A stretch of 64,000 nt of DNA from Candidatus Parcubacteria bacterium (GTDB taxonomy: Bacteria > Patescibacteriota > Minisyncoccia > Phycocordibacterales > JAACPR01): contig JBEBBG010000015.1 in NCBI GenBank assembly GCA_041158505.1, forward strand, positions 12,642-76,641, read 5' to 3'. Below are positions 959 to 52,651 of this stretch, piece by piece. The notes under the pieces were generated by a model. The model did no database searches. It had not been told where the DNA came from and saw only the letters and a program-made list of their open reading frames with translations. A program made the position numbers and the translations under genes. Each line of letters begins with the position of its first letter. Within the stretch, counting starts at the first letter, position 1.

Positions 959-1042
959 ACTCCTCCTCCCTGTGAGCATACGTCACCTATAGAAAACGTC
1001 AATATGCCTTGAGAACGCCTCCTCGTGTATGATGGAACACAT

Positions 1043-1603
1043 ATGATTGCAAAGCTTCGCGGCACCGTTGATGAAGTTGGCGTCTCATCGCTTATCCTTG
1101 ATGTATCAGGGGTTGGCTACCTCGTCTTTGCACCCGGCAACGTGCTTGCCCACGTGCGCACCGGACAGGCAATCACCCTGTTCACCCACCACGCTATCCG
1201 CGAGCAATCATCAGACCTTTATGGATTCCTCGGGCAGGACGAGCTCTCATTCTTTGAGTTACTCCTCACCGTCTCGGGTATTGGTCCCAAATCAGCACTG
1301 GCAATTCTAAACACCGCACCGATTGAAACACTTCGTGAAGGTATTCAATCTGGTGACGCATCACACCTCACCAAAGTTGGAGGTATTGGCAAAAAGAGCG
1401 CAGAAAAGATTGTTGTTGAGCTCAAAGACAAGCTTGGTGGCTTTACCTACACAGGAGGAACAACTACAGGAAGCGGTGACGCAATTGAAGCGCTGACCGC
1501 CCTTGGCTACTCACTTGCAGAAGCTCGTGATGCAATTAAGCTAGTAGATAAAGACTTGTCGACCGAAGACATGGTCAAGCAAGCCCTTAAAACCTTACTG
1601 TAA
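1043..1603 (+). CDS. ruvA: Holliday junction DNA helicase subunit RuvA
   Basis: MIAKLRGTVDEVGVSSLILDVSGVGYLV...HHAIREQSSDLYGF...LLTVSGIGPKSALAIL is a RuvA OB-domain plus HhH signature. ATG at 1043 inside the track ORF 1025..1603. Confidence 0.85.
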   Translation: MIAKLRGTVDEVGVSSLILDVSGVGYLVFAPGNVLAHVRTGQAITLFTHHAIREQSSDLYGFLGQDELSFFELLLTVSGIGPKSALAILNTAPIETLREGIQSGDASHLTKVGGIGKKSAEKIVVELKDKLGGFTYTGGTTTGSGDAIEALTALGYSLAEARDAIKLVDKDLSTEDMVKQALKTLL

Positions 1604-4954: not shown

Positions 4955-5557
4955 TTATGGATCATCTGGATCGATAATCAAATCAGCATCACCTCTTTCA
5001 ACATCTGGTAGGCCATCCCCGAAAAGTGGTGACGGATAGAAAATGCGAGAACCTGTTGGTATACAACCAGACGGTCGCGAGACAGGTTCTGCATCAAGCA
5101 CCCAGCCTTCATTGTGATTGCTTCCGGTAAACACAATACTCACAATCACATCCTTACCAAACCGGTCAGGGATGTAGAAAATGTTTGACATGAGGGCTGT
5201 CCGCAGCAACGGGCCAATCGTGCTACCAAACACTCCGTGCATCTGAAGCAGCCTGAAAATGATTTCTGCAGAAAGTCGTGCCAGCTCAATACCGCCGATC
5301 TTGGCAAGCATGTCTCGATGTGACACAAGGCTGTTTATACGAATAGACATCACACGGACCGGCTTCCAGGAACGACAAATAACTCCAGGGTCATGAGTCA
5401 CATGACGCATAAACGCATCAGTCATGCGCACAATAGGCAGTGACGCTCGAGGATCATCCTTGAGGACAAATCTGCGAGCAGCACAGAAGGGACGTTGCAA
5501 TGGTTGCAAGTCAAACGTGGAACGCTCAAGCACAAAAGGATCTTTTTTCTTTGCCAT
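4955..5557 (-). CDS. hypothetical protein
   Basis: Clean 200-aa ORF convergent with mutM; no motif I can assign confidently (weak xPSPL-like element near the C-terminus only). Confidence 0.5.
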   Translation of the reverse strand: MAKKKDPFVLERSTFDLQPLQRPFCAARRFVLKDDPRASLPIVRMTDAFMRHVTHDPGVICRSWKPVRVMSIRINSLVSHRDMLAKIGGIELARLSAEIIFRLLQMHGVFGSTIGPLLRTALMSNIFYIPDRFGKDVIVSIVFTGSNHNEGWVLDAEPVSRPSGCIPTGSRIFYPSPLFGDGLPDVERGDADLIIDPDDP

Positions 5558-10321: not shown

Positions 10322-11013
10322 CTAGTTGCCCCACCCTGGCCCTTGAGCCCACCAAACGGTGTAGTACCCGTTTGGGTGTACCGAGCCCGAAGGGTGACGC
10401 ATCGGATACCCCTGGGTCGACGCCATCATCGGCGGTCCCGAGGGACGCGGTGCCGGACGACGGTGCTGCTGCGGCGGTGGCGACTGGCGGCGATACTGCG
10501 GTGGTGCGATCCGGCTGGGAGCCGGAGACCCTCCGCCGTTCACGTAGACAGGTGGTCCGACACGCATGCCGGGAGGCAGCTCACGGACAAATTGCCCGTT
10601 GGGCAGACGGTAGCCCAGCAGTTGCGGATTGGGGCACGGTGGTTCCATCGGCATAGACACACGTCTGCAGTGCGGATCGCCAGGCGTACAGGACGACGTG
10701 CGTCCACCGCCGGTGAAGCGACCATCACGCGAGGCAAGCCCCGCCATGGTCGGCGCCGCGACCACCGTGGTGCGATTGACCACGGTGGTGTTGTGGTTGT
10801 GTTGGCTCCGGTCCACGTTCACGTGGTTGCCGTTACCGTTCACGACGACGTTGACGTCGCCATTGTTGCCACGGTTCGACTGACGGGTCGAGGTCTTCTT
10901 GACCTTCTTGTTCGAGCTGTTGCCCGAGAAGAGGTTCAAAAGACCAGCTTCCACCGGGGCGGGGGCCGCGATGGCAGCGGCGAGGACAAAAACGAGAGGA
11001 ATGAGTTTTTTCA
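10322..11013 (-). CDS. secreted low-complexity Pro/Gly/Asn/Arg-rich protein
   Basis: ATG at 11013 gives MKKLIPLVFVLAAAIAAPAPVEA signal peptide, then NGNGNHVNV... and a PPxxRxxP-rich tail ending YYTVWWAQGPGWGN. The region is about 65% GC; the opposite strand is also open (track ORF 10343..11026) and is treated as a shadow ORF. Confidence 0.5.
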
Positions 11014-11149
11014 TGGAGTGGGATAGATCTATTGGGTTTGCTTTCCAATCAATCGGAGAAGCATTTGCCAGAATATTAACACAAAAACAGTGTTTGTCAA
11101 TACAAACAAACCACAATCCCCCATTCTCCCAAAATCCCAAACACACCGC

Positions 11150-12934
11150 ATGCTACAATACAGACCAATGATGCAACGTTTTGCAGATGAAGAATTACGC
11201 GACGAGCGGCTGGCCGAGCTGCACCGCAAGGAAGAAGAGCAACTCGCGCAGATTTTGGCGGAAAAGTACCAAATTCCGTACGCGGATCTAACACGCCTCA
11301 CTATCGACACCGACGGTCTTCGTATTATTCCCGAAGAGGATGCGCGCAAAGCAAAGCTTGCAATCTTTGACCTCATCGGCCAGCGCGTACGCGTTGCCCT
11401 TCTTGCACCCGGTCGCGAGGACACCCAGTCGATTCTCAAAGACCTCGAGACTCGCGGCTACATCATTGAGCCATTCATGGTTTCAACGCAGAGCTTGGAA
11501 CGCGCATGGGAACGCTACAAAGAAATCTCATTTGCAAGCGTCACCAAAGAAGGAACCCTCGACATCTCGAGCCAAGACATCGAGACATTCATCAATCAGG
11601 TGCACAAAATTGATGACGTAAAATCCCTCATCGAAGAGGTGATGCAAATGAAAAAAAGCTTCCGTATTTCTCGGATTGTAGAAATTGTGATGGCAAGCTC
11701 AATTGCGCTCGGTGCGTCAGACATTCACGTAGAACCAGAAGAAGAATTCATTCGGCTTCGATTCCGTCTCGACGGCGTGCTTGTAGAAATTACCTCATTT
11801 GATCTGGACACCTACAACCTCCTCCTCTCCCGCATCAAACTGCTCTCGGGCATGAAGTTGAATATTAAAGAAAATGCACAGGACGGACGCTTTAGTGTAA
11901 AGATTGGCGAACGCGATATTGAAATTCGTTCATCAACGCTTCCGGGTAACTACGGTGAATCAATCGTTATGCGCCTTCTTGATCCAACCTCAATTCAAGT
12001 AAAGATTCAGGACCTTGGTGTGCCAGACAAGCTCATGAAAGTGTTCCTCGAGAATCTCGCGAAGCCAAACGGCATGATCCTCAACACTGGTCCAACCGGT
12101 TCGGGTAAAACCACCACCCTCTATGCGTTCATGCGCTTAAAGAAAACCCCTGAAATTAAAATCATCACCATCGAAGATCCGATTGAGTACCACCTTGAAG
12201 GTATTGTGCAAACACAAGTTGATGCAAAGAAAGGATACGACTTCGCTTCAGGACTTAAGCGATCACTTCGCCAAGACCCAGACGTCATTATGGTTGGTGA
12301 GATCCGAGACCTTGAAACCGCTGAGACAGCGATTCATGCTGCACTCACCGGTCACCTCGTGTTTTCAACACTGCACACCAACAACGCAGCCGGTACGTTT
12401 ACCCGCCTCATTGACCTTGGTATCAACCCAAAGATTCTGACATCAGCAATCAGTATGGCGATCGCACAACGTCTCGTGCGACGCCTCTGCCCACACTGCA
12501 AAAAACCACAACGCATGGCCGGCAGCACACTCACCACCATGAAAAATGTATACGACAGCATTAAAGAACCCGAGGTTCCATGGTCAGAAACAATGTTTGT
12601 ACCAGGCGGTTGCCCCGAGTGTAATAACACTGGCTACAAGGGACGAGTTGGTGTCTTTGAGGCCGTGCTTTCAGATCAGCACGTTGAACAAGCGCTTGAA
12701 ATGAACCCAAGCGAACGTGAAATTAAGCAAGCAGCAGAACCACAGGGTATTATGGATATGGCGCAAGACGGTGTAACCAAGATTCTTAAGGGAACAACAT
12801 CGCTTGAAGAACTTGAGCGCGTCGTCGACATCAGTTCACGCAGTGGTATTGGTGATGCACCAGATGGCTGGGGCAACGATCCCGCAAAAGCTGCGGCAAA
12901 AAACGCAATTGACATCAGCAGTATTGCAGAGTAG
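11150..12934 (+). CDS. pilB: type IV pilus assembly ATPase PilB (GspE family)
   Basis: Walker A LNTGPTGSGKTTTL; HLVFSTLHTNNAAGTFTRLIDLGI; tetracysteine CPHC...CPECNNTGYKGRVGVFE. ATG at 11150 (MLQYRPMMQRF); 11168 is an alternative start. Confidence 0.85.
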   Translation: MLQYRPMMQRFADEELRDERLAELHRKEEEQLAQILAEKYQIPYADLTRLTIDTDGLRIIPEEDARKAKLAIFDLIGQRVRVALLAPGREDTQSILKDLETRGYIIEPFMVSTQSLERAWERYKEISFASVTKEGTLDISSQDIETFINQVHKIDDVKSLIEEVMQMKKSFRISRIVEIVMASSIALGASDIHVEPEEEFIRLRFRLDGVLVEITSFDLDTYNLLLSRIKLLSGMKLNIKENAQDGRFSVKIGERDIEIRSSTLPGNYGESIVMRLLDPTSIQVKIQDLGVPDKLMKVFLENLAKPNGMILNTGPTGSGKTTTLYAFMRLKKTPEIKIITIEDPIEYHLEGIVQTQVDAKKGYDFASGLKRSLRQDPDVIMVGEIRDLETAETAIHAALTGHLVFSTLHTNNAAGTFTRLIDLGINPKILTSAISMAIAQRLVRRLCPHCKKPQRMAGSTLTTMKNVYDSIKEPEVPWSETMFVPGGCPECNNTGYKGRVGVFEAVLSDQHVEQALEMNPSEREIKQAAEPQGIMDMAQDGVTKILKGTTSLEELERVVDISSRSGIGDAPDGWGNDPAKAAAKNAIDISSIAE

Positions 12935-13046
12935 CAGAACAAACGAGCGTTACATAATAAAAAAAAGTAACTGCCTAGTTGTGTATCTACTAAAAGTCGC
13001 TATAGTGGCTCTCAAGTAGTGTCGTTGTTCAGCAAGAAATAAAAAA

Positions 13047-13205
13047 TTTGAAACGGTAGATCTCTAAGCGAGCCATCGAACCGTGCCAATGGTAGACAAA
13101 TAGTTAAGGATAGCCCCAGCAATCACGCGAAAGCGTGAAACCAGGAGCGTCCTTGATTACGTGCCTATAGACAATGTCTATCGCTTAGAGATCTACCGTT
13201 TCAAA
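13047..13205. repeat. 25-bp perfect inverted repeat (tttgaaacggtagatctctaagcga / revcomp) enclosing a 109-bp core with a GNRA hairpin
   Basis: Arms at 13047-13071 and 13181-13205 read directly. The core contains cacgc-gaaa-gcgtg and tagaca-a-tgtcta hairpins. Confidence 0.6.
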
Positions 13206-13251
13206 TATCGCACCCATCGTCCAGTCGTTTACGGCGGTAGGTTGTGCTAGA

Positions 13252-14298
13252 ATGATACCATATCCAAACACTATGTCAACCCCCCAGGAAACAACGGGCC
13301 AAAACAGCACCGGAGAGGCAACCTTCCTCGATCGCGAGCTGCGCCCTGCAACCTGGGACGAATACGTCGGACAGGGGCCAATTAAAGCCAATTTACAAGT
13401 ACTTCTTGAGGCAGCAGCGGGTCGTGGTCACCCCCCAGAACATATTTTATTTTATGGACCACCAGGTCTTGGAAAGACGACGCTGGCGTACCTTATCGCA
13501 AAACACATTGGTGCGCAAATAAAAATCACCTCAGGACCATCAATTGAGAAAGTTGGCGATCTCGCATCACTCCTCACCAACCTAAACACTGGTGATATTC
13601 TCTTTATTGACGAAATTCACCGTCTTAATCGCTCAATTGAGGAAGTTCTCTACCCCGCAATGGAATCCGGCGTGCTCGACATCATTATTGGAAAAGGTCC
13701 GTCTGCACGAACCATCCAGCTTGAACTTCCATCATTCACACTGATTGCTGCAACAACACGCATTGCAATGCTCTCTGCCCCACTACGATCACGATTCTCT
13801 GGCGGCACACACCGTCTTGAATTTTATAGCAACGACGACATCGTCACCATTCTCAAGCGCTCTGCTCGTATTCTTGGCATTGCGCTTGATGATGAAGCCG
13901 CACTTGAAATTGCAAAGCGCTCACGCCACACACCGCGAACAGCAAATTTTCTCCTCAAGCGTTGCCGAGACCTTGCACAGGTACGGGGCACGGCGCTCAA
14001 TCGAGACAGCGTGATTGAAACACTGCACATGCTCGATATTGATGAAAAAGGCCTCACAAAAGCAGACCGGGACCTGCTCTCAATTCTCGTTACCAAATTC
14101 AACGGCGGCCCTGTAGGAGTAAACACGCTCGCGACCGCAATGCACGAAGAATCAGCAACGGTGGAAGAATTTCATGAACCGTACCTCATTCAGCTCGGCC
14201 TTCTCGAACGCACACCCCGCGGCCGCATAGCAACACCTGCTACATACGAACATCTCGGGCTCGATACACCTACACATATTCAAGAAAAGTTACTGTAA
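13252..14298 (+). CDS. ruvB: Holliday junction DNA helicase RuvB
   Basis: GPPGLGKTTLAYLIA Walker A, ILFIDEIHRL Walker B, winged-helix C-terminus. An extended -10 TGcTAGAAT abuts the ATG at 13252, so the in-frame ATG at 13273 (MSTPQ) may be the real start. Confidence 0.9.
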   Translation: MIPYPNTMSTPQETTGQNSTGEATFLDRELRPATWDEYVGQGPIKANLQVLLEAAAGRGHPPEHILFYGPPGLGKTTLAYLIAKHIGAQIKITSGPSIEKVGDLASLLTNLNTGDILFIDEIHRLNRSIEEVLYPAMESGVLDIIIGKGPSARTIQLELPSFTLIAATTRIAMLSAPLRSRFSGGTHRLEFYSNDDIVTILKRSARILGIALDDEAALEIAKRSRHTPRTANFLLKRCRDLAQVRGTALNRDSVIETLHMLDIDEKGLTKADRDLLSILVTKFNGGPVGVNTLATAMHEESATVEEFHEPYLIQLGLLERTPRGRIATPATYEHLGLDTPTHIQEKLL

Positions 14299-14351: not shown

Positions 14352-14882
14352 ATGTCAGGACATAATAAATGGTCAAAAATTAAACGAAAGAAGGGTGCGG
14401 AAGACGCTCGAAAGAGTCAGATTTTTTCTCGATACTCAAAGCTCATCACTAACGAATCAAAGAAATGTAACGGCGATGTTCGTTCTCCAGGGCTCGCGAC
14501 AGTGATTGAAGCGGCAAAGAAAGAGAATATGACCAAGGATGCAATCGATCGTGCAGTAAAGAAAGGAACAGACAAAGATACTGCGTCACTCGAATCAGTT
14601 ACCTACGAAGCATACGGTCCAGGCGGTGTTGCAATCATCATCGATGCACTCACCGACAACAAAAACCGGACAGGACCTGAGATTCGACATATTTTTACTA
14701 AAGCAGGTCTTGAGCTCGCAACACCAGGCGCTGCGCAATGGGCATTCACCCGCCAAAACAACGAGTGGATTCCAAATACCACCACCGAAATTTCAGAAGA
14801 AGATCAGGAAAAACTAGGAGACCTCTTTGAAAAGCTCGATGAGCACGAGGATGTACAGGGCGTATTCACCAACGCCGCGTAG
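14352..14882 (+). CDS. yebC: YebC/PmpR-family transcriptional regulatory protein (short form)
   Basis: MSGHNKWSKIKRKKGAEDARKSQIFSR is the hallmark YebC N-terminus. Confidence 0.8.
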   Translation: MSGHNKWSKIKRKKGAEDARKSQIFSRYSKLITNESKKCNGDVRSPGLATVIEAAKKENMTKDAIDRAVKKGTDKDTASLESVTYEAYGPGGVAIIIDALTDNKNRTGPEIRHIFTKAGLELATPGAAQWAFTRQNNEWIPNTTTEISEEDQEKLGDLFEKLDEHEDVQGVFTNAA

Positions 14883-14905
14883 TGTTGTTGGTGTACAATA
14901 CACCC

Positions 14906-15397
14906 ATGATTGTGCTTGGAGTAGACCCCGGATACGAACGGCTTGGTATCGCCATTCTTCGCAAAGATGCAGGAGATAGACGAGAGACACTCCTCTACTC
15001 AACGTGTTTTCGTACAAGCCCGAAAGACGCACATGCACTACGGCTTGCCCAGATTTTACAGCATATTATGCATATTATCGAGGTACACAAGCCAGACGTA
15101 TTGGCCATAGAAACCTTATTTTTCAGTAAAAACACCACAACGGCACTTAAGGTTGCAGAAGCTCGCGGTACGGTGATTGCGGCCTGTGCAGGTAAAGGGC
15201 TCCAGGTACTTGAATTTTCTCCACAAGATATTAAAATCGCTGTCACCGGAAATGGTTCGAGCGATAAAACGCAGGTCATGAAAATGATCCCCCTGCTCAT
15301 CGCCATGCCGGAGCAGAAGAAACTCGACGACGAGTACGATGCAATTGCAGCAGGACTTACCTGCTTTGCGATGAGCAAAAATATCCACACACGGTAG
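14906..15397 (+). CDS. ruvC: crossover junction endodeoxyribonuclease RuvC
   Basis: MIVLGVDPGYERLGIAIL (catalytic Asp in the GxDPG motif)...DVLAIETLFF...DAIAAGLTC; ATG at 14906 inside the track ORF 14882..15397. Confidence 0.8.
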   Translation: MIVLGVDPGYERLGIAILRKDAGDRRETLLYSTCFRTSPKDAHALRLAQILQHIMHIIEVHKPDVLAIETLFFSKNTTTALKVAEARGTVIAACAGKGLQVLEFSPQDIKIAVTGNGSSDKTQVMKMIPLLIAMPEQKKLDDEYDAIAAGLTCFAMSKNIHTR

Positions 15398-16973: not shown

Positions 16974-19460
16974 ATGAAACGCTGGCAAACGTTGTATAAT
17001 GCAATACTAAGCTACCTTGATTACGCACTTGAGCGCGTAGACCGTTTCGTTGCTTGGGGTGGCGAGCACACAGAACGCATGATTTCTCTCCTAAAAAAGC
17101 AGGGCCTAAAGAAGCTTATTGCGATTGCCGTTATTGTTCTCTTTCTTTGTGCTGGTGGTTTCATGCTCTGGGTGGCAACCTTTGAACTCCCCACCCTCGA
17201 CAACTTTGACGAGCGCCGCATTGCTCAATCAACAAAAATCTACGACCGAACAGGTGATGTCATTTTGTTTGATGTGCACGGCGAGGTAACTCGAACGGTG
17301 GTTCGACTTGATCAGATTGCCGACCACGTAAAATGGGCAACTATCGCAATTGAAGATGCAAATTTTTACAACCACGGCGGCATTGAACCAAAAGCAATCC
17401 TGCGAGCGATTCTCGTGAACCTTAAAAACGGTGATTTGCTTGGCGGACAAGGTGGTTCAACCATTACCCAGCAGGTTATTAAAAATGCGCTCCTCACTAC
17501 CGACAAAAAAATCTCTCGAAAAGTAAAAGAGTGGGTGCTTGCGCCACGACTCGAAAACCTCCTTACAAAGGACCAGATTCTTGAAGTCTACCTCAACGAA
17601 GTACCATACGGTGGTACCGTATACGGCGTACAGGAGGCGTCTCGACGGTTTTTTGGTAAAGATGCAAAAGATCTCACCCTTGCTGAATCAGCCTACCTTG
17701 CTGCCCTTCCCCAAGCACCAAGCCGCTACTCTCCATACGGAAACAACTTAGACCTTCTCGAAGCCCGAAAGAACCGCGTCCTCGACGAAATGGTAAAAAA
17801 TGACTTCATCACTGAAGAAGAGCGTGATACGGCAAAAGCAGAGCAAGTAACCTTCCAAAAACCAGAAAACTTTGGCATCAAGGCACCTCACTTTGTTTTT
17901 TGGATTAGAGAGCAGCTTGAAGAAAAATATGGAACCGAAGCAGTAGAGGCGGGTGGTCTCAAAGTTGTTACCACACTCGATTGGAAGCTACAGGAAGCGT
18001 CTGAAGAAATTGTAAAGCGGTACGCGCTACAAAACGCGACCCAGTTTAACGCAGAAAATGCCGCAGCAGTTATCATCGATCCAGCAACCGGCCAGGTCTT
18101 AACAATGGTTGGCTCTCGAGATTACTTTGATGAAGAAATTGATGGGAACTTCAATATTGCAACAGCTGAGCGTCAGCCAGGTTCGGCGTTCAAACCATTT
18201 GTATACGCAGAGGCTTTCAATAAAGGATACCGACCAGAAACCGTTGTCTTTGACGTCCCAACAGAATTCTCTGCAACTTGTAGCATTGGCGGCGACTGTT
18301 ACAGTCCACAAAATTACGACAACGTTTTTCGTGGACCAATGACACTGCGCGACGCCCTCGCACAATCAGTAAACATCCCAGCAGTAAAAGCGCTCTACCT
18401 TGCAGGTCTGCGAGACTCTCTTGAGCTCGCACGCAGCATGGGTATCTCAACACTCACCAACGTGAATCAGTATGGACTAACACTCGTGCTCGGAGGTGGA
18501 GAGGTTCGCCCACTCGACATGGCTGCGGCGTACAGTGTTTTTGCAACTGAAGGAGTAAAGCACCCAACCACCGGCATCCTCCGTGTTGAAGACAAAGACG
18601 GTGAGGTTCTCGAGGAATACAAAGAGGAATCTGAACGTGTTCTCCCAGAGCAAACCGCCCGACTCATCTCAGACGTACTGTCAGACAACGCTGCCCGAAC
18701 ACCAGCGTTTGGTTCAAGCTCATACCTCAACATCCCAGGTGCCGCAGTAGCCGTAAAAACAGGTACCACAAACGATTACCGTGACGCATGGATTGTGGGA
18801 TATACCCCAACCGTATCAGTTGCCTCATGGGCAGGAAACAACAATAACGAATCGATGGAGAAAAAGGTTGCCGGCTTTATCGTCGCACCGATGTGGAACG
18901 AGATCATGAGAAAAGCAATTGAGCTCTACCCAGCAAACGGTTTCACCCCACCAGCACCAATGGCAGAGGACACCAAACCTGCGATTGCCGGTTTTTGGAA
19001 TACTCCATCTGGAGTTCACTCAATTCTTCATTGGGTAGACCGAAGCAATCCTCTCGGCGGCATTCCTTCAAACCCATCAAGCGATCCACAGTACCAACTC
19101 TGGGAAGCAGGTGTGCAAGCATGGGTTGGTGGTCAGGGTATTCCAGGTTTTGGAGAAGACGTTGATGAAGACGGCAACCCTCGCATATCGTTCGAAATCA
19201 CAAACCCAGGAAACGGAGATTCTTTCGTTGGGAACACAACCATTTACGTTGCAGCAGTTATGCGCGGAGGCCAAATTGCGAACGGCGAAGTATTCATTAA
19301 CGACAACCGCGCAGGTTCACTCGATACCACCTCTGGTTCATTCTCGTTTGTTCCAAACGACACCGAAGGAATTCGTCGAAACAACAACGAGTTGCGCGTA
19401 GTTGTAACAGATACAACAGGAAAAACCCACGAAGATTCTGTTCGGTTTGGAGTTCGATAA
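16974..19460 (+). CDS. mrcA: class A penicillin-binding protein (PBP1A; transglycosylase plus transpeptidase) with C-terminal extension
   Basis: N-terminal TM, GT51 motifs EDANFYNHGGIEP / GGSTITQQVIKN, transpeptidase region, about 150-aa C-terminal tail. Confidence 0.85.
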   Translation: MKRWQTLYNAILSYLDYALERVDRFVAWGGEHTERMISLLKKQGLKKLIAIAVIVLFLCAGGFMLWVATFELPTLDNFDERRIAQSTKIYDRTGDVILFDVHGEVTRTVVRLDQIADHVKWATIAIEDANFYNHGGIEPKAILRAILVNLKNGDLLGGQGGSTITQQVIKNALLTTDKKISRKVKEWVLAPRLENLLTKDQILEVYLNEVPYGGTVYGVQEASRRFFGKDAKDLTLAESAYLAALPQAPSRYSPYGNNLDLLEARKNRVLDEMVKNDFITEEERDTAKAEQVTFQKPENFGIKAPHFVFWIREQLEEKYGTEAVEAGGLKVVTTLDWKLQEASEEIVKRYALQNATQFNAENAAAVIIDPATGQVLTMVGSRDYFDEEIDGNFNIATAERQPGSAFKPFVYAEAFNKGYRPETVVFDVPTEFSATCSIGGDCYSPQNYDNVFRGPMTLRDALAQSVNIPAVKALYLAGLRDSLELARSMGISTLTNVNQYGLTLVLGGGEVRPLDMAAAYSVFATEGVKHPTTGILRVEDKDGEVLEEYKEESERVLPEQTARLISDVLSDNAARTPAFGSSSYLNIPGAAVAVKTGTTNDYRDAWIVGYTPTVSVASWAGNNNNESMEKKVAGFIVAPMWNEIMRKAIELYPANGFTPPAPMAEDTKPAIAGFWNTPSGVHSILHWVDRSNPLGGIPSNPSSDPQYQLWEAGVQAWVGGQGIPGFGEDVDEDGNPRISFEITNPGNGDSFVGNTTIYVAAVMRGGQIANGEVFINDNRAGSLDTTSGSFSFVPNDTEGIRRNNNELRVVVTDTTGKTHEDSVRFGVR

Positions 19461-19464
19461 AACC

Positions 19465-19704
19465 CTAGAGCACCCGCAAAATCTCCGCGAATCGCTCCTC
19501 AATCTCTTTGCGACGTATAAAAATTTCAGCCTTTGCACTACCACTAACACGAACGCGCAAAACCCCGTTCTCTATAGAAATTTCTTTTTCACCAACAGTA
19601 ACTCCGCAAACATCTTCAATTGCCTGCCGAACACTCTTTGACAGTTCACGCTCTTTAAGCCCAAAATGTTCGAACTTCCTTAGGTAAACTTCAATGCTCT
19701 GCAT
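19465..19704 (-). CDS. DUF721/DciA-like small protein
   Basis: 79 aa immediately downstream of dnaN (a common DUF721 position); the GVLRVRVSGSAKAEIF-like segment resembles DUF721. Weak. Confidence 0.35.
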   Translation of the reverse strand: MQSIEVYLRKFEHFGLKERELSKSVRQAIEDVCGVTVGEKEISIENGVLRVRVSGSAKAEIFIRRKEIEERFAEILRVL

Positions 19705-19706
19705 TA

Positions 19707-20807
19707 CTACTTATTGAGCGGCATTACGAGGTACAAGAATGTTGGGTCGTTCACCCCACGAATAACAACTGGTTTGGTACGACCATTAAACATCAAAACA
19801 ATACTGTCTGAGTTAATAGAACCAAACGCATCGCTCACGTACTTGTGATTAAAACTAATCTCCACGGCCTCTCCGCGCAGTGTTGCATCGACAACATTTC
19901 TGTTCTCACCCTTGTCGACATTTTTCGACGTGAGCTCAAAAACACCGTCATCCGGTCGAATAGACACAGTGACCTGATTAAAGCTGTCTGAGAAGAGATT
20001 TGAGAGTTTTAGGGCCTGTACAAGATCCTGTTTGAGCACCGTAACCTCTGTCGTGTTGTCTTTTGGAATAATCTGCTGATAGTCAGGAAAGTTTCCGTCC
20101 ACAATCCTGGTCATAAGGTACACTCCGTCGTGAACAAATGCCACCTGACCACTCTCGAAACGAACCTCGATGTCTGCCTGTACATCATCAAAAACTCGAA
20201 TGATTTCAGCGACGTTTCGATGAGGAATAAGGACACTTTCGAACTGGTCAACCTCCCTCGCTTCAATTCGCTTCTCAGCAAGTCGAAACGAGTCCGTAGC
20301 AACAAACATCAGGTTTCCATCCTTTGGGTATAAGTACACACTCGAAAGCTCTGGTTTCATACTTGAAACCGAAGCACTGTACCAAACCGACTTGAGACCA
20401 TGGATGAGCATTGGGGCAGATATTTTGCAGGTATGCACATTCTCAAGTTGTGGGATTGTTGGAAAATCTTCGTGAGAAAGAGCTTTGATTGTTGTTTCGT
20501 TGTGGCTTGAGGTAATAGTGAGGTTTTGATTTTGAACCTCAAGCGTGATGGTTTCGTGATCAGAAACGTTTGACAGAAATTGAACAAAAAGACCACCAGG
20601 AACCGCAACGACTCCTTCCCGTTCTACCTTTACGGGTACAGACGCTTCAAGACCTAGATCAAGGTTTGTCGCCTTAATATGAAGCTTTGAACCTTTCGCC
20701 TCTAGTAGTACACATGCCAACACTGGCAACGTGGCGTTTTTGCTCGTGATACGATCCGCCTTACTTACCATCGACTGCACTTTTTCCTTCGAGCAAACAA
20801 TCTTCAT
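19707..20807 (-). CDS. dnaN: DNA polymerase III beta sliding clamp
   Basis: 366 aa; MKIVCSKEKV...LPVLACVLLEAKGSKLHIKATNLDLG is a beta-clamp N-terminus; three-domain length. Confidence 0.9.
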   Translation of the reverse strand: MKIVCSKEKVQSMVSKADRITSKNATLPVLACVLLEAKGSKLHIKATNLDLGLEASVPVKVEREGVVAVPGGLFVQFLSNVSDHETITLEVQNQNLTITSSHNETTIKALSHEDFPTIPQLENVHTCKISAPMLIHGLKSVWYSASVSSMKPELSSVYLYPKDGNLMFVATDSFRLAEKRIEAREVDQFESVLIPHRNVAEIIRVFDDVQADIEVRFESGQVAFVHDGVYLMTRIVDGNFPDYQQIIPKDNTTEVTVLKQDLVQALKLSNLFSDSFNQVTVSIRPDDGVFELTSKNVDKGENRNVVDATLRGEAVEISFNHKYVSDAFGSINSDSIVLMFNGRTKPVVIRGVNDPTFLYLVMPLNK

Positions 20808-27482: not shown

Positions 27483-28049
27483 CTAGGCAGCTGTTCTGCT
27501 AGAAACGTACGCATCAATGTTTTGATTAAGTCTTGCAACTTTTTTCGGAACAAACCTTTGAACCTCATCCAAAATAAACCAGAAAGCCTTTACTACTTTT
27601 GTGTGGTGATAGTGAACAGAGAGAATCAAAAACGTGTTGGCGGTGATGACGTCGTTAAAAGGGATGGCATCACTGATTGCAAAAAGTACAAGCATGAGCA
27701 TTATTTTTCGAAGGATAATCTTCTGAGTTATCCTGCTTATCGTGCCGCTTTCTTTTCCAAAAAACCAGAAAAAATTTATAACCCAAGTTAGTATTTTAAA
27801 AATCCAGTAAACAACAACACCAACACCTGTTAACGAAAGAAGGGACGCCGCTATAGAGAGGGTGTCAAAAATTGCATTTATTAAAACAATAAGTGTTGGG
27901 AATGGTGGTAGCTTTGGACGGTTTTCTAGAAGTTGAATAGACGCATCCCGATCAATATCAGTCGCAAATGTTTCTTTAAAGCGCCCCTGAAACTCTCTAA
28001 GGTGACGTTGGCTAGAACGAGCGTGGCGCACTATATTTCCGTCAGGCAT
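27483..28049 (-). CDS. polytopic membrane protein (T4SS-like cluster)
   Basis: Three to four TM segments (TLIVLINAIFDTLSIAASLL, VVVYWIFKILTWVINFFWFF, IMLMLVLFAI). ATG at 28049 (MPDGNIV); the track start at 28064 is GTG. Confidence 0.45.
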   Translation of the reverse strand: MPDGNIVRHARSSQRHLREFQGRFKETFATDIDRDASIQLLENRPKLPPFPTLIVLINAIFDTLSIAASLLSLTGVGVVVYWIFKILTWVINFFWFFGKESGTISRITQKIILRKIMLMLVLFAISDAIPFNDVITANTFLILSVHYHHTKVVKAFWFILDEVQRFVPKKVARLNQNIDAYVSSRTAA

Positions 28050-28053
28050 ACCC

Positions 28054-29925
28054 CTATCGTACACCCTTAATCTCTAGTCCACCACGAAGAGCTTCTGGAT
28101 TTGCCATACCACCAGATGCGCGGAGTTCTTCTTTTGCACGCTTAATTTGCAGCACCTGTGATGGGTCTGAGGTGATGATCTGGTCTTCAGTGTATGAGGC
28201 GATAATTTTAATCGCAATGTGCTTGATGCCAGCAAAGAAGATTCCCTCTCCCACTCCAGACTCAAGGAGAAGATACTTCTCTTCCTCGGTGAGGTTAAAG
28301 GTTTGCTGAATCATATCGATTGCAGTCGGTGATTGTTTCAAGAGGAGCTGGATTGATGAGTTGGTGATGATCGGCATACCGTATGGCGATCGAAGGAAGT
28401 CCTCAACGTCTTGGGTAATGGTAGACATACCGAGATAGTATTTTCGTCCTCGTTTTGCAAGCCCAAAGAGGAACGACGCGGTGTCGTCTGATTTCATCAT
28501 CCACCACGCCTCATCGATTACGAGCAGTCGCTTTTTGAGCTCTTTGCGCACAGCATTCCAAATGAAGTGCGTCACAAGGTACATTGCAACCGGCTTAAGT
28601 TCATCTTCCATGTCTCGAAGCGAGAACACGATGAAGCGCTTGTTTACGTCGATGTTTGTTGGTTTGTTGATGAAACCTGCCCAGGTACCACGTGTGTACT
28701 TTGAAAGCTTTTGAGCCATACTCTCCCCTCCCTCCATGCCGGAGAGCACATACTCGAAGTCAGAAAGAAGTGGTGGTTCAATATTTGAGAAATCACTTTC
28801 GGGAGTAATGTCTTTAAGCGCGTACGTTTCAGAAATCGCGCGATCAACGAGCGCATCTTCCTCAGGGGTGAGTCCACCAAGCATGAGTCGGAAAAGACCA
28901 ACAAGGTTCACAATATTTGATCGGAGCACGTCACCTGCAGATTCATCTGGTGTTGGTGGTGCAAGGTCAAACGGGTTGATGTGGTGATCTGAAGTAAGAG
29001 AAATATTGAAGTAGCGCCCGCCTGTTGCTTCCGCAAGGAATTCATATTCACGTTCCGGGTCGATTACAATGACGTCGGTGTCGAGCATCAGGGTGCGCAA
29101 GATCTCGAGCTTTGATGCGTACGATTTACCAGAACCAGCCTTTGCAAAGGTAACTGAGTTGTAGTTTTCAAGACTGAATCGGTCAAAGAGGACGAGCGAG
29201 TTGTTGTGTCGGTTAATACCAAAGAGAATTCCCTTATCCGAGGTAAGGTCAAACGAGATGAATGGAAAGAGGCTCGAGAGTGGTGCTGAGTTGAGCTTTG
29301 AATGCACGCCGAGAAGATCTTGCCCTGTTGGAATAACGGTCTTAAATGCCTCCTCCTGCTGGAAGAGTGCAGGCTTTACGTACACCAACTTTGCTTCGAG
29401 AATCGACTTTACCTCAGAATCGAACTTGTCGAGCTCATCTTTGTTGTCCGCATAGATGCTGATATAGAGACCAACATCAAAGATTTTCTCTTGTGCCTGC
29501 TGGAGGTTGTCACGGAGAATTTCAAGGTCTTGGTATGCGGTGTCGAGTACAGGATCGCGTACAAGCCCCTTCTCTTCTCGGGTGTGAATCTGGCTCTGCA
29601 CTTCGGCTACTTTCTTTTTAAATTGTCGAAGGATGGTTGCGGTATCGATTGGGTGCACAAAAATCGATACATCAAATACTTTGTCGAGGTTGATGATTGG
29701 TGCAAACCACGAGTCTGAAAGGAAGCGTGGGTACGAGATAACGAAGAACGTGCGCACCATTTTGTCACCAAGGTTGATGTCACGAGGGCTCATCTTGAGC
29801 GCTGAAGGCGCAATCACGTCTTGTAGCTCAAGCACGCCCGCCTCGTAAATTTCTTGTGGAAGAAATGACGTAATGTCAGGTGTTTTTGGAGCTTCCTTTT
29901 TCTTTAGAAAATCAAAGAGGGCCAT
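28054..29925 (-). CDS. T4SS ATPase VirB4/TrbE/PrgJ family, ATPase portion
   Basis: VirB4 N-region RTFFVISYP...FVHPID; Walker A FAKAGSGKSYA; Walker B LLVIDEAWWM; C-terminal TrbE-type domain. Starts at an ATG one codon after the in-frame TAG that ends the upstream ORF. Confidence 0.8.
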   Translation of the reverse strand: MALFDFLKKKEAPKTPDITSFLPQEIYEAGVLELQDVIAPSALKMSPRDINLGDKMVRTFFVISYPRFLSDSWFAPIINLDKVFDVSIFVHPIDTATILRQFKKKVAEVQSQIHTREEKGLVRDPVLDTAYQDLEILRDNLQQAQEKIFDVGLYISIYADNKDELDKFDSEVKSILEAKLVYVKPALFQQEEAFKTVIPTGQDLLGVHSKLNSAPLSSLFPFISFDLTSDKGILFGINRHNNSLVLFDRFSLENYNSVTFAKAGSGKSYASKLEILRTLMLDTDVIVIDPEREYEFLAEATGGRYFNISLTSDHHINPFDLAPPTPDESAGDVLRSNIVNLVGLFRLMLGGLTPEEDALVDRAISETYALKDITPESDFSNIEPPLLSDFEYVLSGMEGGESMAQKLSKYTRGTWAGFINKPTNIDVNKRFIVFSLRDMEDELKPVAMYLVTHFIWNAVRKELKKRLLVIDEAWWMMKSDDTASFLFGLAKRGRKYYLGMSTITQDVEDFLRSPYGMPIITNSSIQLLLKQSPTAIDMIQQTFNLTEEEKYLLLESGVGEGIFFAGIKHIAIKIIASYTEDQIITSDPSQVLQIKRAKEELRASGGMANPEALRGGLEIKGVR

Positions 29926-29928
29926 ATG

Positions 29929-30570
29929 CTAATTGTGTGGTAATGGTTTCTCAACATCACCTGGATTAAAGAGTCGGTAAAAGATTTCAATCACCTCTTC
30001 GGTGCCAAGTTGCACTGCGCGAATACCGCTGCGGACGATTCCAGACCGCACAACGGCGATACGCTGTTCAAGCTGGCTGCGTGCTTCCTCAAAATCTTCA
30101 GTCTTCATGTTTGCGTCTTTTTTGCCACCAAACGGATTGCTTACCTTTTTGCCGCGAACATCAATCGTTGGTGGTGTGTACGGAACTGTAATGTAAAAGG
30201 TCTTGGTCATAATGTTGGTGCGCTCAGTAAACGCTTGGATGAATCCAATGTACTCTTTGATTTGCACGCGCATGAGGTCGTTAATTTGCTCTCGCTCGCG
30301 AGCTTCAAGCATTGCTACGTATGGACGAATGTCGAGACGTCTCGACTGGATGAAGATTTGAACCGAGAAATTGAGCGAGTTGAGAAACTGTTGGAATTGG
30401 AAAATGATTGCACTCTGCTCCTCTTCTGATTTGAGCGCAAAGTTGATTGAAGAGGTCATGAGGATTGCGCGCATTGAACCATCCTTGAGCACAAGAATAC
30501 CGTCACGCACTTCACGCACGGGGACAAAGTCCTGTGTTGTTTTTGAGTTTGCTGCTGCCATATCGTGCAT
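29929..30570 (-). CDS. VirB4-family N-terminal domain protein; same frame as the ATPase ORF, separated by a single TAG
   Basis: VPVREVRDGILVLKDGSMRAILMTSSINFALKSEEEQSAIIFQFQQFLNS matches the conserved N-terminus of Gram-positive VirB4-like ATPases; frame continuity with 28054..29925 checked by coordinates. Confidence 0.5.
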   Translation of the reverse strand: MHDMAAANSKTTQDFVPVREVRDGILVLKDGSMRAILMTSSINFALKSEEEQSAIIFQFQQFLNSLNFSVQIFIQSRRLDIRPYVAMLEAREREQINDLMRVQIKEYIGFIQAFTERTNIMTKTFYITVPYTPPTIDVRGKKVSNPFGGKKDANMKTEDFEEARSQLEQRIAVVRSGIVRSGIRAVQLGTEEVIEIFYRLFNPGDVEKPLPHN

Positions 30571-49028: not shown

Positions 49029-49568
49029 TTACTTGTTGCTACGTCGAATTACCCGCAATCGGTCAAAGATGAGATGTTGCTTTGGGTCTTCGCCAAGGTC
49101 TATAAAGTCATCTGCTGCTTCAATGAGTTTGCTCGAGGTTGATTTCCCGAATGCAACTACTTCAACCTGACACCCGTGCGCAAGCTGTAAGTGCTCAACG
49201 AGCGGTACAAAATCACCGTCTCCTGAAACAAGAATGACGCTATCAAGCTTGGTTGCCATTGAAACAGCATCAATCGCAATACCAACGTCCCAGTCTGCCT
49301 TTTTTGCTCCACCTGCAAAAACTTGCAAGTCCTTTGTGCGTGTTTCAATCCCCGACTTAACGAGCGCTTCAAAAAAGCTGGTTTCATCACCTGCTTCTGA
49401 ACTAATAACGTATGCGATACAACGGACGAGCTGACGACCAGCAAGTGCGGTCTGTACTACCTTTCCAAAATTTACCTTTGCGTGATGTAGGTTCTTGGCG
49501 CTGTGGTACAGGTTTTGTGTGTCGATAAAAATACCGACGCGTTGATCTTTATGTTTAATGACTGACAT
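49029..49568 (-). CDS. NYN-domain (LabA/DUF88-like) protein
   Basis: RVGIFIDTQNLYHS...VILVSGDGDFVPLVEHL: NYN/PIN-like acidic residues. Confidence 0.6.
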   Translation of the reverse strand: MSVIKHKDQRVGIFIDTQNLYHSAKNLHHAKVNFGKVVQTALAGRQLVRCIAYVISSEAGDETSFFEALVKSGIETRTKDLQVFAGGAKKADWDVGIAIDAVSMATKLDSVILVSGDGDFVPLVEHLQLAHGCQVEVVAFGKSTSSKLIEAADDFIDLGEDPKQHLIFDRLRVIRRSNK

Positions 49569-52046: not shown

Positions 52047-52067
52047 TTGTTAAAAGTAAAAGTGAGA

Positions 52068-52103
52068 ACGCCGCCGACCTTGGAAGGGTCGGCGGCGTTT
52101 TTA
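52068..52103 (+). terminator. Rho-independent terminator after the xer gene
   Basis: acgccgccgacc-ttggaagg-gtcggcggcgt-ttttaaa. Confidence 0.7.
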
Positions 52104-52132
52104 AAGCTTGTCAGGGCGGGTTTTGGGGTTTT

Positions 52133-52651
52133 TCAGCTGCCGAGGGCAACTTGCTTTCCGTCTGGTGCAGATTCCTTGGCTTCTTTGATAGAGCTAAGTG
52201 ATCCATCCATAAGGGCGGCGAGTCGTCCTCGCGGTCTCGTCCGGTATTGCTCCAAGACGTTGATGGGGGCGCTGGTTGGCCTATCACTTTCGCTTTTTGG
52301 CTTGAGTGCTTCGCGCTTCCCCCTCATTTCTGCTGGCGTCACGGAGTCTCCTTTACAGGCGACACAGACCAGAATCGTCAGAGGCGATTCCATGTCGATG
52401 TGCCCAATGAAGGCTCCGTTTGTACTGAATGCCCGATCGGTGAGCATTTTTTTCATCTGCTCGAAACTTCCGTCGTTGCCGAACGTCAGTCTCAGACATT
52501 GGCACTTCCGAGAGCTCGGGTCTCTCTTCTGTGCTGAGTTGATGGTAGCGATTGCTGCGACGATTTTCGCCGTAGCTGTTTCCACCGTTTCGGTCTGAAT
52601 TTCGTGTTGTGCGGGTGCCCCATTGGGGGCGGGATCGTCAGTCAATTTCAT
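52133..52651 (-). CDS. hypothetical protein with two Cys pairs (CQC...CVAC)
   Basis: ATG at 52651 preceded by a perfect SD (ttGGAGGaaagaaaATG on the minus strand); 172 aa; GC-rich. Confidence 0.55.
   Translation of the reverse strand: MKLTDDPAPNGAPAQHEIQTETVETATAKIVAAIATINSAQKRDPSSRKCQCLRLTFGNDGSFEQMKKMLTDRAFSTNGAFIGHIDMESPLTILVCVACKGDSVTPAEMRGKREALKPKSESDRPTSAPINVLEQYRTRPRGRLAALMDGSLSSIKEAKESAPDGKQVALGS

What the first reader, a model, noticed from the sequence alone, without database searches (positions are those of the whole stretch)
13047..13205. 159-bp element bounded by 25-bp perfect inverted repeats with an internal GNRA hairpin (MITE or structured RNA)
The arms tttgaaacggtagatctctaagcga / tcgcttagagatctaccgtttcaaa are perfect. 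The 109-bp core contains cacgc-GAAA-gcgtg (a GNRA tetraloop hairpin) and tagaca-a-tgtcta. It sits in a 317-bp gap between pilB and ruvB in an otherwise tightly packed genome. A 25-bp perfect stem is unusual for a terminator and fits a miniature inverted-repeat element or a small structured RNA.
Basis: seen in the sequence. Interest (0 to 1): 0.55.

Follow-up and report, generated by a model that had tools for sequence, protein, structure and literature searches.

The report
Conserved structured small RNA gene beside ruvB
The inverted repeat is the closing stem of a previously undescribed structured small RNA gene on the minus strand, kept at one fixed spot next to the DNA-repair gene ruvB in over a hundred Parcubacteria (candidate phyla radiation) genomes; it is not a mobile element, and its function is unknown.

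Summary
The perfect inverted repeat is 26 nt (13046-13071 / 13181-13206) with 109 nt between the arms.

The MITE reading is refuted. The element is single copy. A context-free metagenome pattern search found homologues only between a pilB-like ATPase gene and ruvB, and none in viral, phage or plasmid collections.

- In 100 distinct homologues, 93.4% of cells pair and 36 of 40 pairs show compensatory changes.
- G.U outnumbers A.C 305:95 in the minus sense.
- A near-consensus sigma-70 promoter (perfect TTGACA in 102 of 119, TG-extended -10 in 90%) lies upstream on the minus strand.
- A U-tract or a separate terminator lies downstream.

The fold is a 24-35 bp closing stem (P1), a small optional hairpin (P2), a long irregular arm with a conserved AGGAC/UAUCCU motif (P3) and a 3' hairpin (P4).

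No Rfam 15 family matches, even at E<=10, and I found no literature on it. The promoter's -35 hexamer overlaps the ruvB start codon in most genomes.

Function is unknown. The most likely role is a stable protein-binding RNA acting in trans, possibly coupled to ruvB expression through promoter overlap.

The parts
13252..13279 (-). Sigma-70-type promoter of the RNA: -35 TTGACA (13279-13274), 16-nt spacer, TG-extended -10 TGgTATCAT (13260-13252). The predicted start of transcription is near 13245.
   Evidence: 11 of 12 consensus matches, with TG; 102 of 119 distinct relatives have a perfect TTGACA, 90% have TG, and the spacer is 16-18 nt in the same sense. The reverse-complement control scores 7.6 against 10.4.
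13207..13245 (-). Predicted 5' leader of the RNA. It is antisense to the region just upstream of ruvB.
   Evidence: Inferred from the promoter position. Leader length varies between relatives, about 3-100 nt. It is about 78% identical to L188, whereas the element itself is 97% identical.
13181..13206 (-). P1 closing helix, 5' strand of the RNA.
   Evidence: 24 modelled pairs, 23 of them with compensatory changes, 94.6% of cells paired.
13168..13180 (-). P2, a small 5' hairpin (UAGAC-AUU-GUCUA). Its sequence is variable and it is absent in some relatives.
   Evidence: In 92 of 100 relatives this region is at least 9 nt; its mean folding energy is -5.0 against -1.3 kcal/mol when shuffled, and UUCG and GCAA are the commonest loops.
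13093..13167 (-). P3, a long irregular arm. It has a weakly paired lower part, the conserved AAGGACG (13148-13154) opposite UAUCCUU (13106-13112), a frequent U.G wobble, and a variable apical hairpin (13123-13138).
   Evidence: 8 of 11 modelled pairs are compensatory, and U.G is the commonest pair at one position (68 of 100); the lower 14 positions are 56% paired against 31-51% (mean about 40%) when slid; the differences from L188 are compensatory or C-to-U opposite G.
13073..13092 (-). P4, the 3' hairpin (CCAUUGG-CACGGU-UCGAUGG). Most relatives have CUUUU...AAAAG here, preceded by a conserved UUA linker.
   Evidence: (5 of 5 pairs compensatory).
13046..13071 (-). P1 closing helix, 3' strand of the RNA.
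13036..13045 (-). U-tract (UUUUUAUUU) directly after P1. It is the probable intrinsic termination point.
   Evidence: 50% of relatives have a run of at least 4 T within 30 nt after P1, against 26% in the antisense control. Others carry a separate hairpin plus T-run further downstream.
13273..14298 (+). ruvB (context). Its start codon, ATGTCAA, is the reverse complement of the RNA promoter's -35 (TTGACAT).
   Evidence: The ATGTCAA overlap occurs in 96 of 120 distinct loci and opens a full-length RuvB ORF in 83.
11090..12934 (+). pilB-like T2SSE ATPase gene (context), convergent with the RNA.

Best explanation
The element is a single-copy gene for a structured small RNA of about 165-210 nt, encoded on the minus strand. 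It founds a previously undescribed family spread through the Parcubacteria group of Patescibacteria.

Shown or read directly from sequence:
- It is transcribed from a near-consensus sigma-70 promoter (13279-13252, minus strand) whose -35 hexamer overlaps the ruvB start codon.
- It runs leftwards and ends at the U-tract after the 26-bp helix.
- It folds into a rod-like molecule: a long closing helix P1, a three- or four-way junction carrying the short hairpins P2 and P4, and a long irregular arm P3. P3 carries a conserved asymmetric internal loop (AGGAC / UAUCCU) and a conserved U.G wobble.

Inferred:
- It acts in trans as a stable protein-binding RNA (scaffold or decoy). P1 seals and protects the ends.
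- The P3 loop, the U.G wobble and the UUA linker are the likely recognition surface.
- The RNA promoter and the ruvB start and promoter region physically overlap, so firing of the strong RNA promoter probably limits or is coupled to ruvB transcription.

My confidence is above 0.9 for 'conserved structured RNA gene on the minus strand, not mobile'. It is about 0.5 for the protein-binding mode acting in trans.
For: Homologues lie just upstream of ruvB in the 17 closest of the 80 species-representative ruvB loci fetched, plus six more distant Patescibacteria-type loci (L020, L021, L039, L040, L041, L064), and in no clearly non-Patescibacteria locus.

A context-free pattern scan of metagenomes returned 120 loci. 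About 110 carry the RNA, always divergent from ruvB and convergent with pilB wherever flanks exist.

Covariation on 100 distinct sequences: 93.4% of cells paired against 35-50% when slid, 36 of 40 pairs compensatory, 0 of 500 shuffles reached the observed values.

Strand: G.U to A.C is 305:95 overall and 173:29 in P3. U.G is the majority pair at one P3 position. UUCG loops appear in this sense. The promoter is conserved in this sense only. T-runs or terminators lie downstream.

Purifying selection: the element is 156 of 161 identical to L188 while the flanks are 65-80% identical, and the differences are compensatory.

No gene is called in the gap on independent contigs.
Against: There is no expression data, so the transcript ends are predictions. 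Only half of the relatives have a T-run near P1. No protein partner is identified. A 26-bp perfect duplex is an expected RNase III substrate, so the mature form may differ from the primary transcript. The strict synteny could mean the function is local (regulation of ruvB or pilB) rather than in trans. The alignment used for pair counts was fitted to the model, which inflates pairing percentages somewhat.
Confidence: 0.6

Rival explanations
1. It is the lineage's 6S-type RNA. In that case the rod-shaped RNA would bind the sigma-70 RNA polymerase holoenzyme as a promoter mimic and regulate transcription globally.
For: The size (about 170-190 nt), the paired 5' and 3' ends in a long closing stem, an apical stem-loop, a hairpin on the 3' side of the central region, and the strong housekeeping promoter all resemble 6S. 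From my own knowledge, 6S is sequence-variable and often escapes covariance models in new phyla. I found no paper that mentions both 6S RNA and the candidate phyla radiation.
Against: There is no Rfam 6S hit even at E<=10 on a 221-nt search space. The centre is a three- or four-way junction with almost no unpaired nucleotides, not a large open bubble. Relatives lacking P2 have essentially no single-stranded 5' central strand. The lower part of P3 is partly paired.
Confidence: 0.12
2. Its main job is local. The strong divergent promoter, and/or the RNA as a cis-antisense transcript, controls ruvB (overlapping promoters, 5' overlap) or the 3' end of pilB. The folded body would serve mainly as a stable terminator or insulator.
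For: The -35 hexamer overlaps the ruvB start codon in 96 of 120 loci. Linkage to ruvB persists even where pilB is replaced by another gene (L020, L039). A possible + strand promoter at 12980-13007 is conserved in L188 and could send transcripts through the element.
Against: A terminator or insulator does not need a conserved 110-nt multi-helix core with sequence-conserved loops and covarying P3 and P4. No + strand promoter is conserved family-wide. The predicted overlap with the ruvB transcript is short.
Confidence: 0.15
3. P1 is an RNase III processing stem. The functional molecule would be the core of about 110-130 nt released after cleavage, as with rRNA precursors. This is compatible with the best explanation.
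For: P1 is 24-35 bp and nearly perfect (about 91% Watson-Crick and 4% G.U). Leader length is variable. Some relatives have a separate downstream terminator, which implies 3' trimming.
Against: The inner half of P1 is the most sequence-conserved part of the RNA within the main clade, which is unexpected for a stem that is discarded. The core matches no rRNA or other Rfam family.
Confidence: 0.2
4. It is a miniature inverted-repeat transposable element or another mobile or viral DNA element.
For: The perfect terminal inverted repeats, the small size and the lack of an ORF.
Against: It is single copy in 64 kb. It sits at the same syntenic site in every homologue found without using gene context. 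It is absent from viral contigs, phages and plasmids. The arms covary as an RNA helix across lineages.
Confidence: 0.01
5. It is a + strand element: a 5'-UTR riboswitch or attenuator of ruvB, or the terminator of pilB.
For: It lies between pilB and ruvB on their coding strand, and the + strand also folds stably.
Against: G.U pairs in the minus sense become A.C mismatches on the + strand, including a position that is U.G in 68% of sequences. There is no T-run after the hairpin on the + strand, and the terminator scan found none. No + strand promoter is conserved.
Confidence: 0.04

Closest known systems
Lineage-specific orphan structured sRNAs found by comparative genomics (for example Bacteroidales-1, Chlorobi-1, Acido-Lenti-1, raiA motif RNA)
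   Same: It is a stand-alone gene with its own promoter and terminator, a covarying multi-helix structure, restriction to one bacterial lineage, and unknown function.
   Different: There is no sequence or structure match to any of them (Rfam 15). It has an unusually long near-perfect closing helix, strict synteny, and a promoter interlocked with the ruvB start codon.
6S RNA (ssrS)
   Same: The length, the rod shape with paired termini, the apical stem-loop, the 3' central hairpin, the strong sigma-70 promoter and the high conservation.
   Different: It has no open central bubble but a junction with side hairpins. There is no covariance-model hit. The closing stem is nearly perfect rather than bulged.
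Y RNAs / adenovirus VA RNA-type protein-binding RNAs (terminal stem, central domain, apical stem)
   Same: The overall architecture of a long terminal stem plus a central junction plus an apical arm, which suggests a protein-binding scaffold or decoy.
   Different: No Ro60 (Rsr) or other known partner gene is adjacent. The conserved Ro-binding helix is absent. There is no Rfam hit, and the host lineage is bacterial Parcubacteria.
Intrinsic terminator
   Same: In this window P1 is followed directly by a U-tract on the transcribed strand.
   Different: The hairpin 'loop' is a conserved, covarying 109-nt multi-helix domain. Half of the relatives lack a U-tract next to P1.

Membership tests
MITE / mobile element | Multiple dispersed copies per genome at non-homologous sites | tested here: not met
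   There is one copy in the window. All of the roughly 110 context-free metagenomic homologues lie at the pilB/ruvB site.
MITE / mobile element | Terminal inverted repeats flanked by target-site duplications, and related to a transposon | tested here: not met
   The repeat finder reported no direct repeat flanking the arms. The arms covary like an RNA helix. There are no matches in phage, plasmid or viral collections.
6S RNA | About 150-200 nt with the 5' and 3' ends paired in a long closing stem, plus a terminal stem-loop | tested here: met
6S RNA | A large, mostly unpaired central bubble that mimics an open promoter | tested here: not met
   The consensus is a three- or four-way junction. 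In the window there are 0-1 unpaired nucleotides at the junction. The lower part of P3 is partly paired.
6S RNA | Match to the Rfam 6S covariance models | tested here: not met
   No hit at E<=10 in the window or in relatives.
6S RNA | Binds the sigma-70 RNA polymerase holoenzyme and templates product RNAs | not testable with these tools
   This needs biochemistry or small-RNA sequencing.
SRP RNA (4.5S) | Domain IV hairpin with a GNRA loop and the conserved symmetric and asymmetric loops (AGCA motif) | tested here: not met
   The P3 apical loop is variable (UUUC, UUCG and others) and there is no AGCA motif. There is no Rfam SRP hit.
Bacterial Y RNA | An adjacent or co-occurring Ro60/Rsr gene, a conserved Ro-binding helix and a tRNA-like module | tested here: not met
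   The neighbours are pilB and ruvB in all loci. No T-loop motif is conserved in P4. There is no Rfam hit. Genome-wide presence of Rsr was not tested.
Riboswitch / cis-regulatory leader | Lies in the 5' UTR of a downstream gene on the same strand | tested here: not met
   In the RNA's sense the next gene (pilB) is convergent. On the + strand the structure is disfavoured.
Conserved structured ncRNA (generic) | Statistically supported compensatory base-pair changes across diverged homologues | tested here: met
   36 of 40 pairs are compensatory, 0 of 500 shuffles reached the observed values, and the slid controls pair at 35-50% against 93.4%.

The most novel reading that the evidence does not exclude
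This is a new class of housekeeping ribonucleoprotein RNA specific to Parcubacteria, and its biology is tied to RuvB. Its promoter is built into the ruvB start codon. Its perfect four-way junction, with two long duplex arms, could mimic a Holliday junction or otherwise engage the RuvAB machinery, or another partner not yet known to use an RNA. It would not be a diverged 6S, SRP or Y RNA.
Probability: 0.3. Interest if true: 0.8.

Novelty: new variant of a known kind. Interest (0 to 1): 0.62.

Why it matters
Patescibacteria make up a large share of bacterial diversity. They have tiny, tightly packed genomes and almost no experimentally characterised non-coding RNAs.

This RNA has a strong promoter and is retained at one locus across many candidate phyla of the Parcubacteria group. 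It is 97% identical between species whose proteins are about 85% identical. Such an RNA is very likely to do something important.

This work defines the family: a covariance model, the structure, the strand, the promoter and the synteny. That makes the question testable in metatranscriptomes and in the few cultured representatives. It also gives annotators a way to label a gap that is otherwise left unannotated.

The interlocking of the RNA promoter with the ruvB start codon is an unusual and compact regulatory arrangement in its own right.

Tried and rejected
- Rfam 15 scans of the window (gathering and E<=10), of seven relatives, and of the element alone in two genomes gave nothing on the element. 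The only nearby hits were a spurious partial IS605-orfB-II hit on the + strand (E 0.47-6.5) and a weak CRISPR-DR26 hit (E 5.2) at the 3' edge.
- tRNA/tmRNA scan: nothing at the locus.
- Seven literature searches (Patescibacteria, Parcubacteria, Paceibacteria or CPR with structured RNA, 6S, SRP, ncRNA or small RNA; ruvB with RNA motif) and one paper read found no description.
- SRP RNA, 5S rRNA, RNase P and Y RNA were considered by eye and rejected for lack of their defining motifs and of covariance-model hits. Loose resemblances (AGGACGUCCUGG to RNase P CR-I; the P1 ends to the E. coli 6S ends) come from memory and are probably chance.
- I asked whether the RNA might replace a missing RuvA. 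This is rejected: ruvA is present at 1025-1603.
- A + strand promoter between pilB and the element is not conserved family-wide.
- L033 (Buchananbacteria) has no structured RNA upstream of ruvB. L018, L046 and L074 gave no model hit there. So the RNA is not universal in Patescibacteria, or it lies elsewhere in those lineages.

Full report
**Observation**

The window carries a perfect 26-nt inverted repeat, 13046-13071 and 13181-13206, with 109 nt between the arms. The arm sequence occurs nowhere else in the 64 kb even with three mismatches, and no shuffle produced a match. Both strands fold far better than shuffled controls. The flanking genes are a PilB-type T2SSE ATPase (11090-12934) and RuvB. 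RuvB's true start is ATG 13273. The nearest relative has no ATG at 13252, and independent gene calls on other contigs give a 341-aa RuvB from this ATG.

**Relatives**

RuvB placed the organism in Patescibacteria. The best species-representative genomes are 64-70% identical and are labelled Zambryskibacteria, Nomurabacteria, Ryanbacteria, Kaiserbacteria, Minisyncoccia and similar. NCBI taxonomy puts one of the more distant hosts, Candidatus Moraniibacteriota (L039), in the Parcubacteria group of the Patescibacteria group; that the others belong there too rests on my own knowledge.

Every close relative has a 16-35 nt inverted repeat with a spacer of 77-129 nt just upstream of ruvB. The inner stem sequence is conserved in the main clade (AAUCUCUAAGCAAU / AUUGCUUAGAGAUU). 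It is replaced by other mutually complementary sequences in more distant lineages (L003, L012, L020, L039, L040, L041, L064, L021).

A covariance model built from 16 sequences found the element in the 17 closest loci and more weakly in L020, L039, L040 and L041. It found nothing among the Clostridia, Chloroflexi and other ruvB loci at E<0.01. With filters off it also found full-length matches in L064 and L021.

**Not mobile**

I scanned metagenomes with a pattern that uses only the stem sequence: ATCTCTAAGC, then 100-130 nt, then GCTTAGAGAT.

- About 110 of them carry a full-length model or HMM match.
- In every one with enough flanking DNA, ruvB lies upstream on the opposite strand and the pilB-like gene lies downstream and convergent. 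There was no exception.
- In L020 and L039 the pilB neighbour is replaced by a TPR protein gene, but the ruvB linkage remains.
- The same pattern finds nothing in IMG/VR viral contigs.
- The element has no blastn match in phage or plasmid collections.

The MITE reading is therefore rejected.

**It is an RNA, read from the minus strand**

On 100 distinct sequences aligned to the model:

- 93.4% of cells form standard pairs, against 35-50% when partners are slid by 1-3 columns.
- 36 of 40 pairs show changes on both sides.
- None of 500 shuffles reaches the observed values.

Evidence for the minus strand:

- In the minus-strand sense, G.U outnumbers A.C 305 to 95, and 173 to 29 in P3.
- At one P3 position, U.G is the commonest pair (68 of 100).
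- Several P2 and P3 loops are UUCG in this sense.
- Upstream in this sense, 102 of 119 distinct loci have a perfect TTGACA, a spacer of 16-18 nt and a -10 hexamer. The -10 is preceded by TG in 90% of loci. The mean score is 10.4, against 7.6 for the reverse-complement control. In the window this promoter is TTGACA-16-TGgTATCAT at 13279-13252.
- Downstream, the window has UUUUUAUUU directly after P1. Half of the relatives have a T-run within 30 nt (26% in the antisense control). Others show a separate hairpin plus T-run.

Caveats: the alignment is fitted to the model, and no expression data were available.

**Structure (RNA sense)**

- P1 is a closing helix of 24-35 bp (13206-13181 with 13071-13046).
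- P2 is a small variable hairpin (13180-13168). It is absent in L012, L014, L016 and L017.
- P3 is a long arm (13167-13093). Its lower 14 positions are only partly paired (56% against a mean of about 40% in slid controls). It also has a conserved AGGA/UCCU helix next to a C/UA asymmetric loop, a conserved U.G wobble and a variable apical hairpin.
- A UUA linker follows P3.
- P4 is a 3' hairpin (13092-13073).
- In the window the junction has almost no unpaired nucleotides.
- Distant variants (L040, L041, L064) add a fifth hairpin.

**Selection**

Against L188 (RuvB 85% and PilB 88% identical), the element is 156 of 161 identical. The adjacent intergenic and coding DNA is about 65-80% identical. 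The five differences lie in P3 and are either a U-A to C-G double change or C-to-U changes opposite G.

**Interlocked promoter**

TTGACAT on the minus strand is ATGTCAA on the + strand, which is the RuvB start (Met-Ser). This heptamer lies within 200 nt of the RNA in 96 of 120 distinct loci. It opens a full-length RuvB ORF in 83 of them. The rest of the RuvB N-terminus is variable.

The ruvB promoter and 5' UTR must therefore sit inside the RNA's promoter and leader region. Mutual occlusion or coupling of the two promoters is a reasonable inference, but it is untested.

**Comparison with known families**

No Rfam 15 family matches the element. This holds at gathering thresholds, at E<=10 over 2.5 kb, over seven relatives, and over the element alone.

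- SRP RNA: the domain IV motif is absent.
- 5S rRNA, RNase P and Y RNA: their defining motifs are absent.
- 6S RNA: the size and rod shape fit, but the defining open central bubble is missing.
- Literature: seven searches gave no description.

I therefore treat it as a new family of stand-alone structured sRNA. The closest in kind are lineage-specific orphan sRNAs and rod-shaped protein-binding RNAs.

**Mechanism**

Shown or read directly from sequence: the conserved promoter, the covarying fold, the strand, the single syntenic copy and the purifying selection.

Inferred: a stable RNA acting in trans that binds a protein through the conserved P3 loop, the wobble and the linker, with P1 protecting the ends. 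A local effect on ruvB through promoter overlap is a possible secondary role.

Rivals:
- a 6S-like polymerase binder;
- a primarily local antisense or occlusion regulator;
- an RNase III-processed precursor (compatible with the main model);
- a + strand leader or terminator;
- a MITE.

**Verdict**

The family is undescribed and widespread in Parcubacteria, and its function is unknown.

Noticed in passing
window 13273-13279 (and 96 of 120 related loci): The RuvB start codon and second codon (ATGTCAA) are the reverse complement of the -35 hexamer plus one base (TTGACAT) of the divergent sRNA promoter. The RuvB N-terminus is consequently Met-Ser in nearly all relatives, while the following residues vary.
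   Followed up: yes
window 1025-1603 (+): ruvA (RuvA_N, HHH_5 and RuvA_C domains) lies 12 kb from ruvB rather than directly upstream as in the usual ruvAB operon. ruvB is instead followed by a yebC-family gene (14352-14882) and ruvC (14882-15397).
   Followed up: partly
window 12980-13007 (+): A promoter-like TTGTGT-16-TATAGT lies between pilB and the element. Both hexamers and the spacing are conserved in L188 although the spacer sequence has diverged. It could drive + strand transcription through the element towards ruvB. It is not conserved across the family.
   Followed up: partly
window about 18000-20000: Cumulative GC skew reaches its minimum here. The predominant coding strand switches from + to - near 19.5 kb, and the AT skew changes sign too. 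This may be a replication landmark.
   Followed up: no
L021:2305-2484 (-): A MAG contig labelled 'uncultured Bdellovibrionales' carries the same RNA architecture just upstream of ruvB. Either the label is wrong or the family reaches beyond Patescibacteria.
   Followed up: partly
L020:7942-8016: A long palindromic hairpin gives weak hits on both strands to a microRNA model (mir-2363, E about 0.002). It is probably just another strong hairpin or terminator in a relative.
   Followed up: no
window 49029-49568 (-): A 179-aa NYN-domain protein (a predicted RNA nuclease fold). Several neighbouring ORFs of 180-220 aa have no Pfam match: 4955-5557, 27483-28064, 29929-30570 and 52047-52598.
   Followed up: no
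window 10322-11146 (-) / 10343-11026 (+): Two long overlapping ORFs on opposite strands lie just upstream of pilB, and neither has a Pfam match. It is unclear which of them, if either, is a gene.
   Followed up: no
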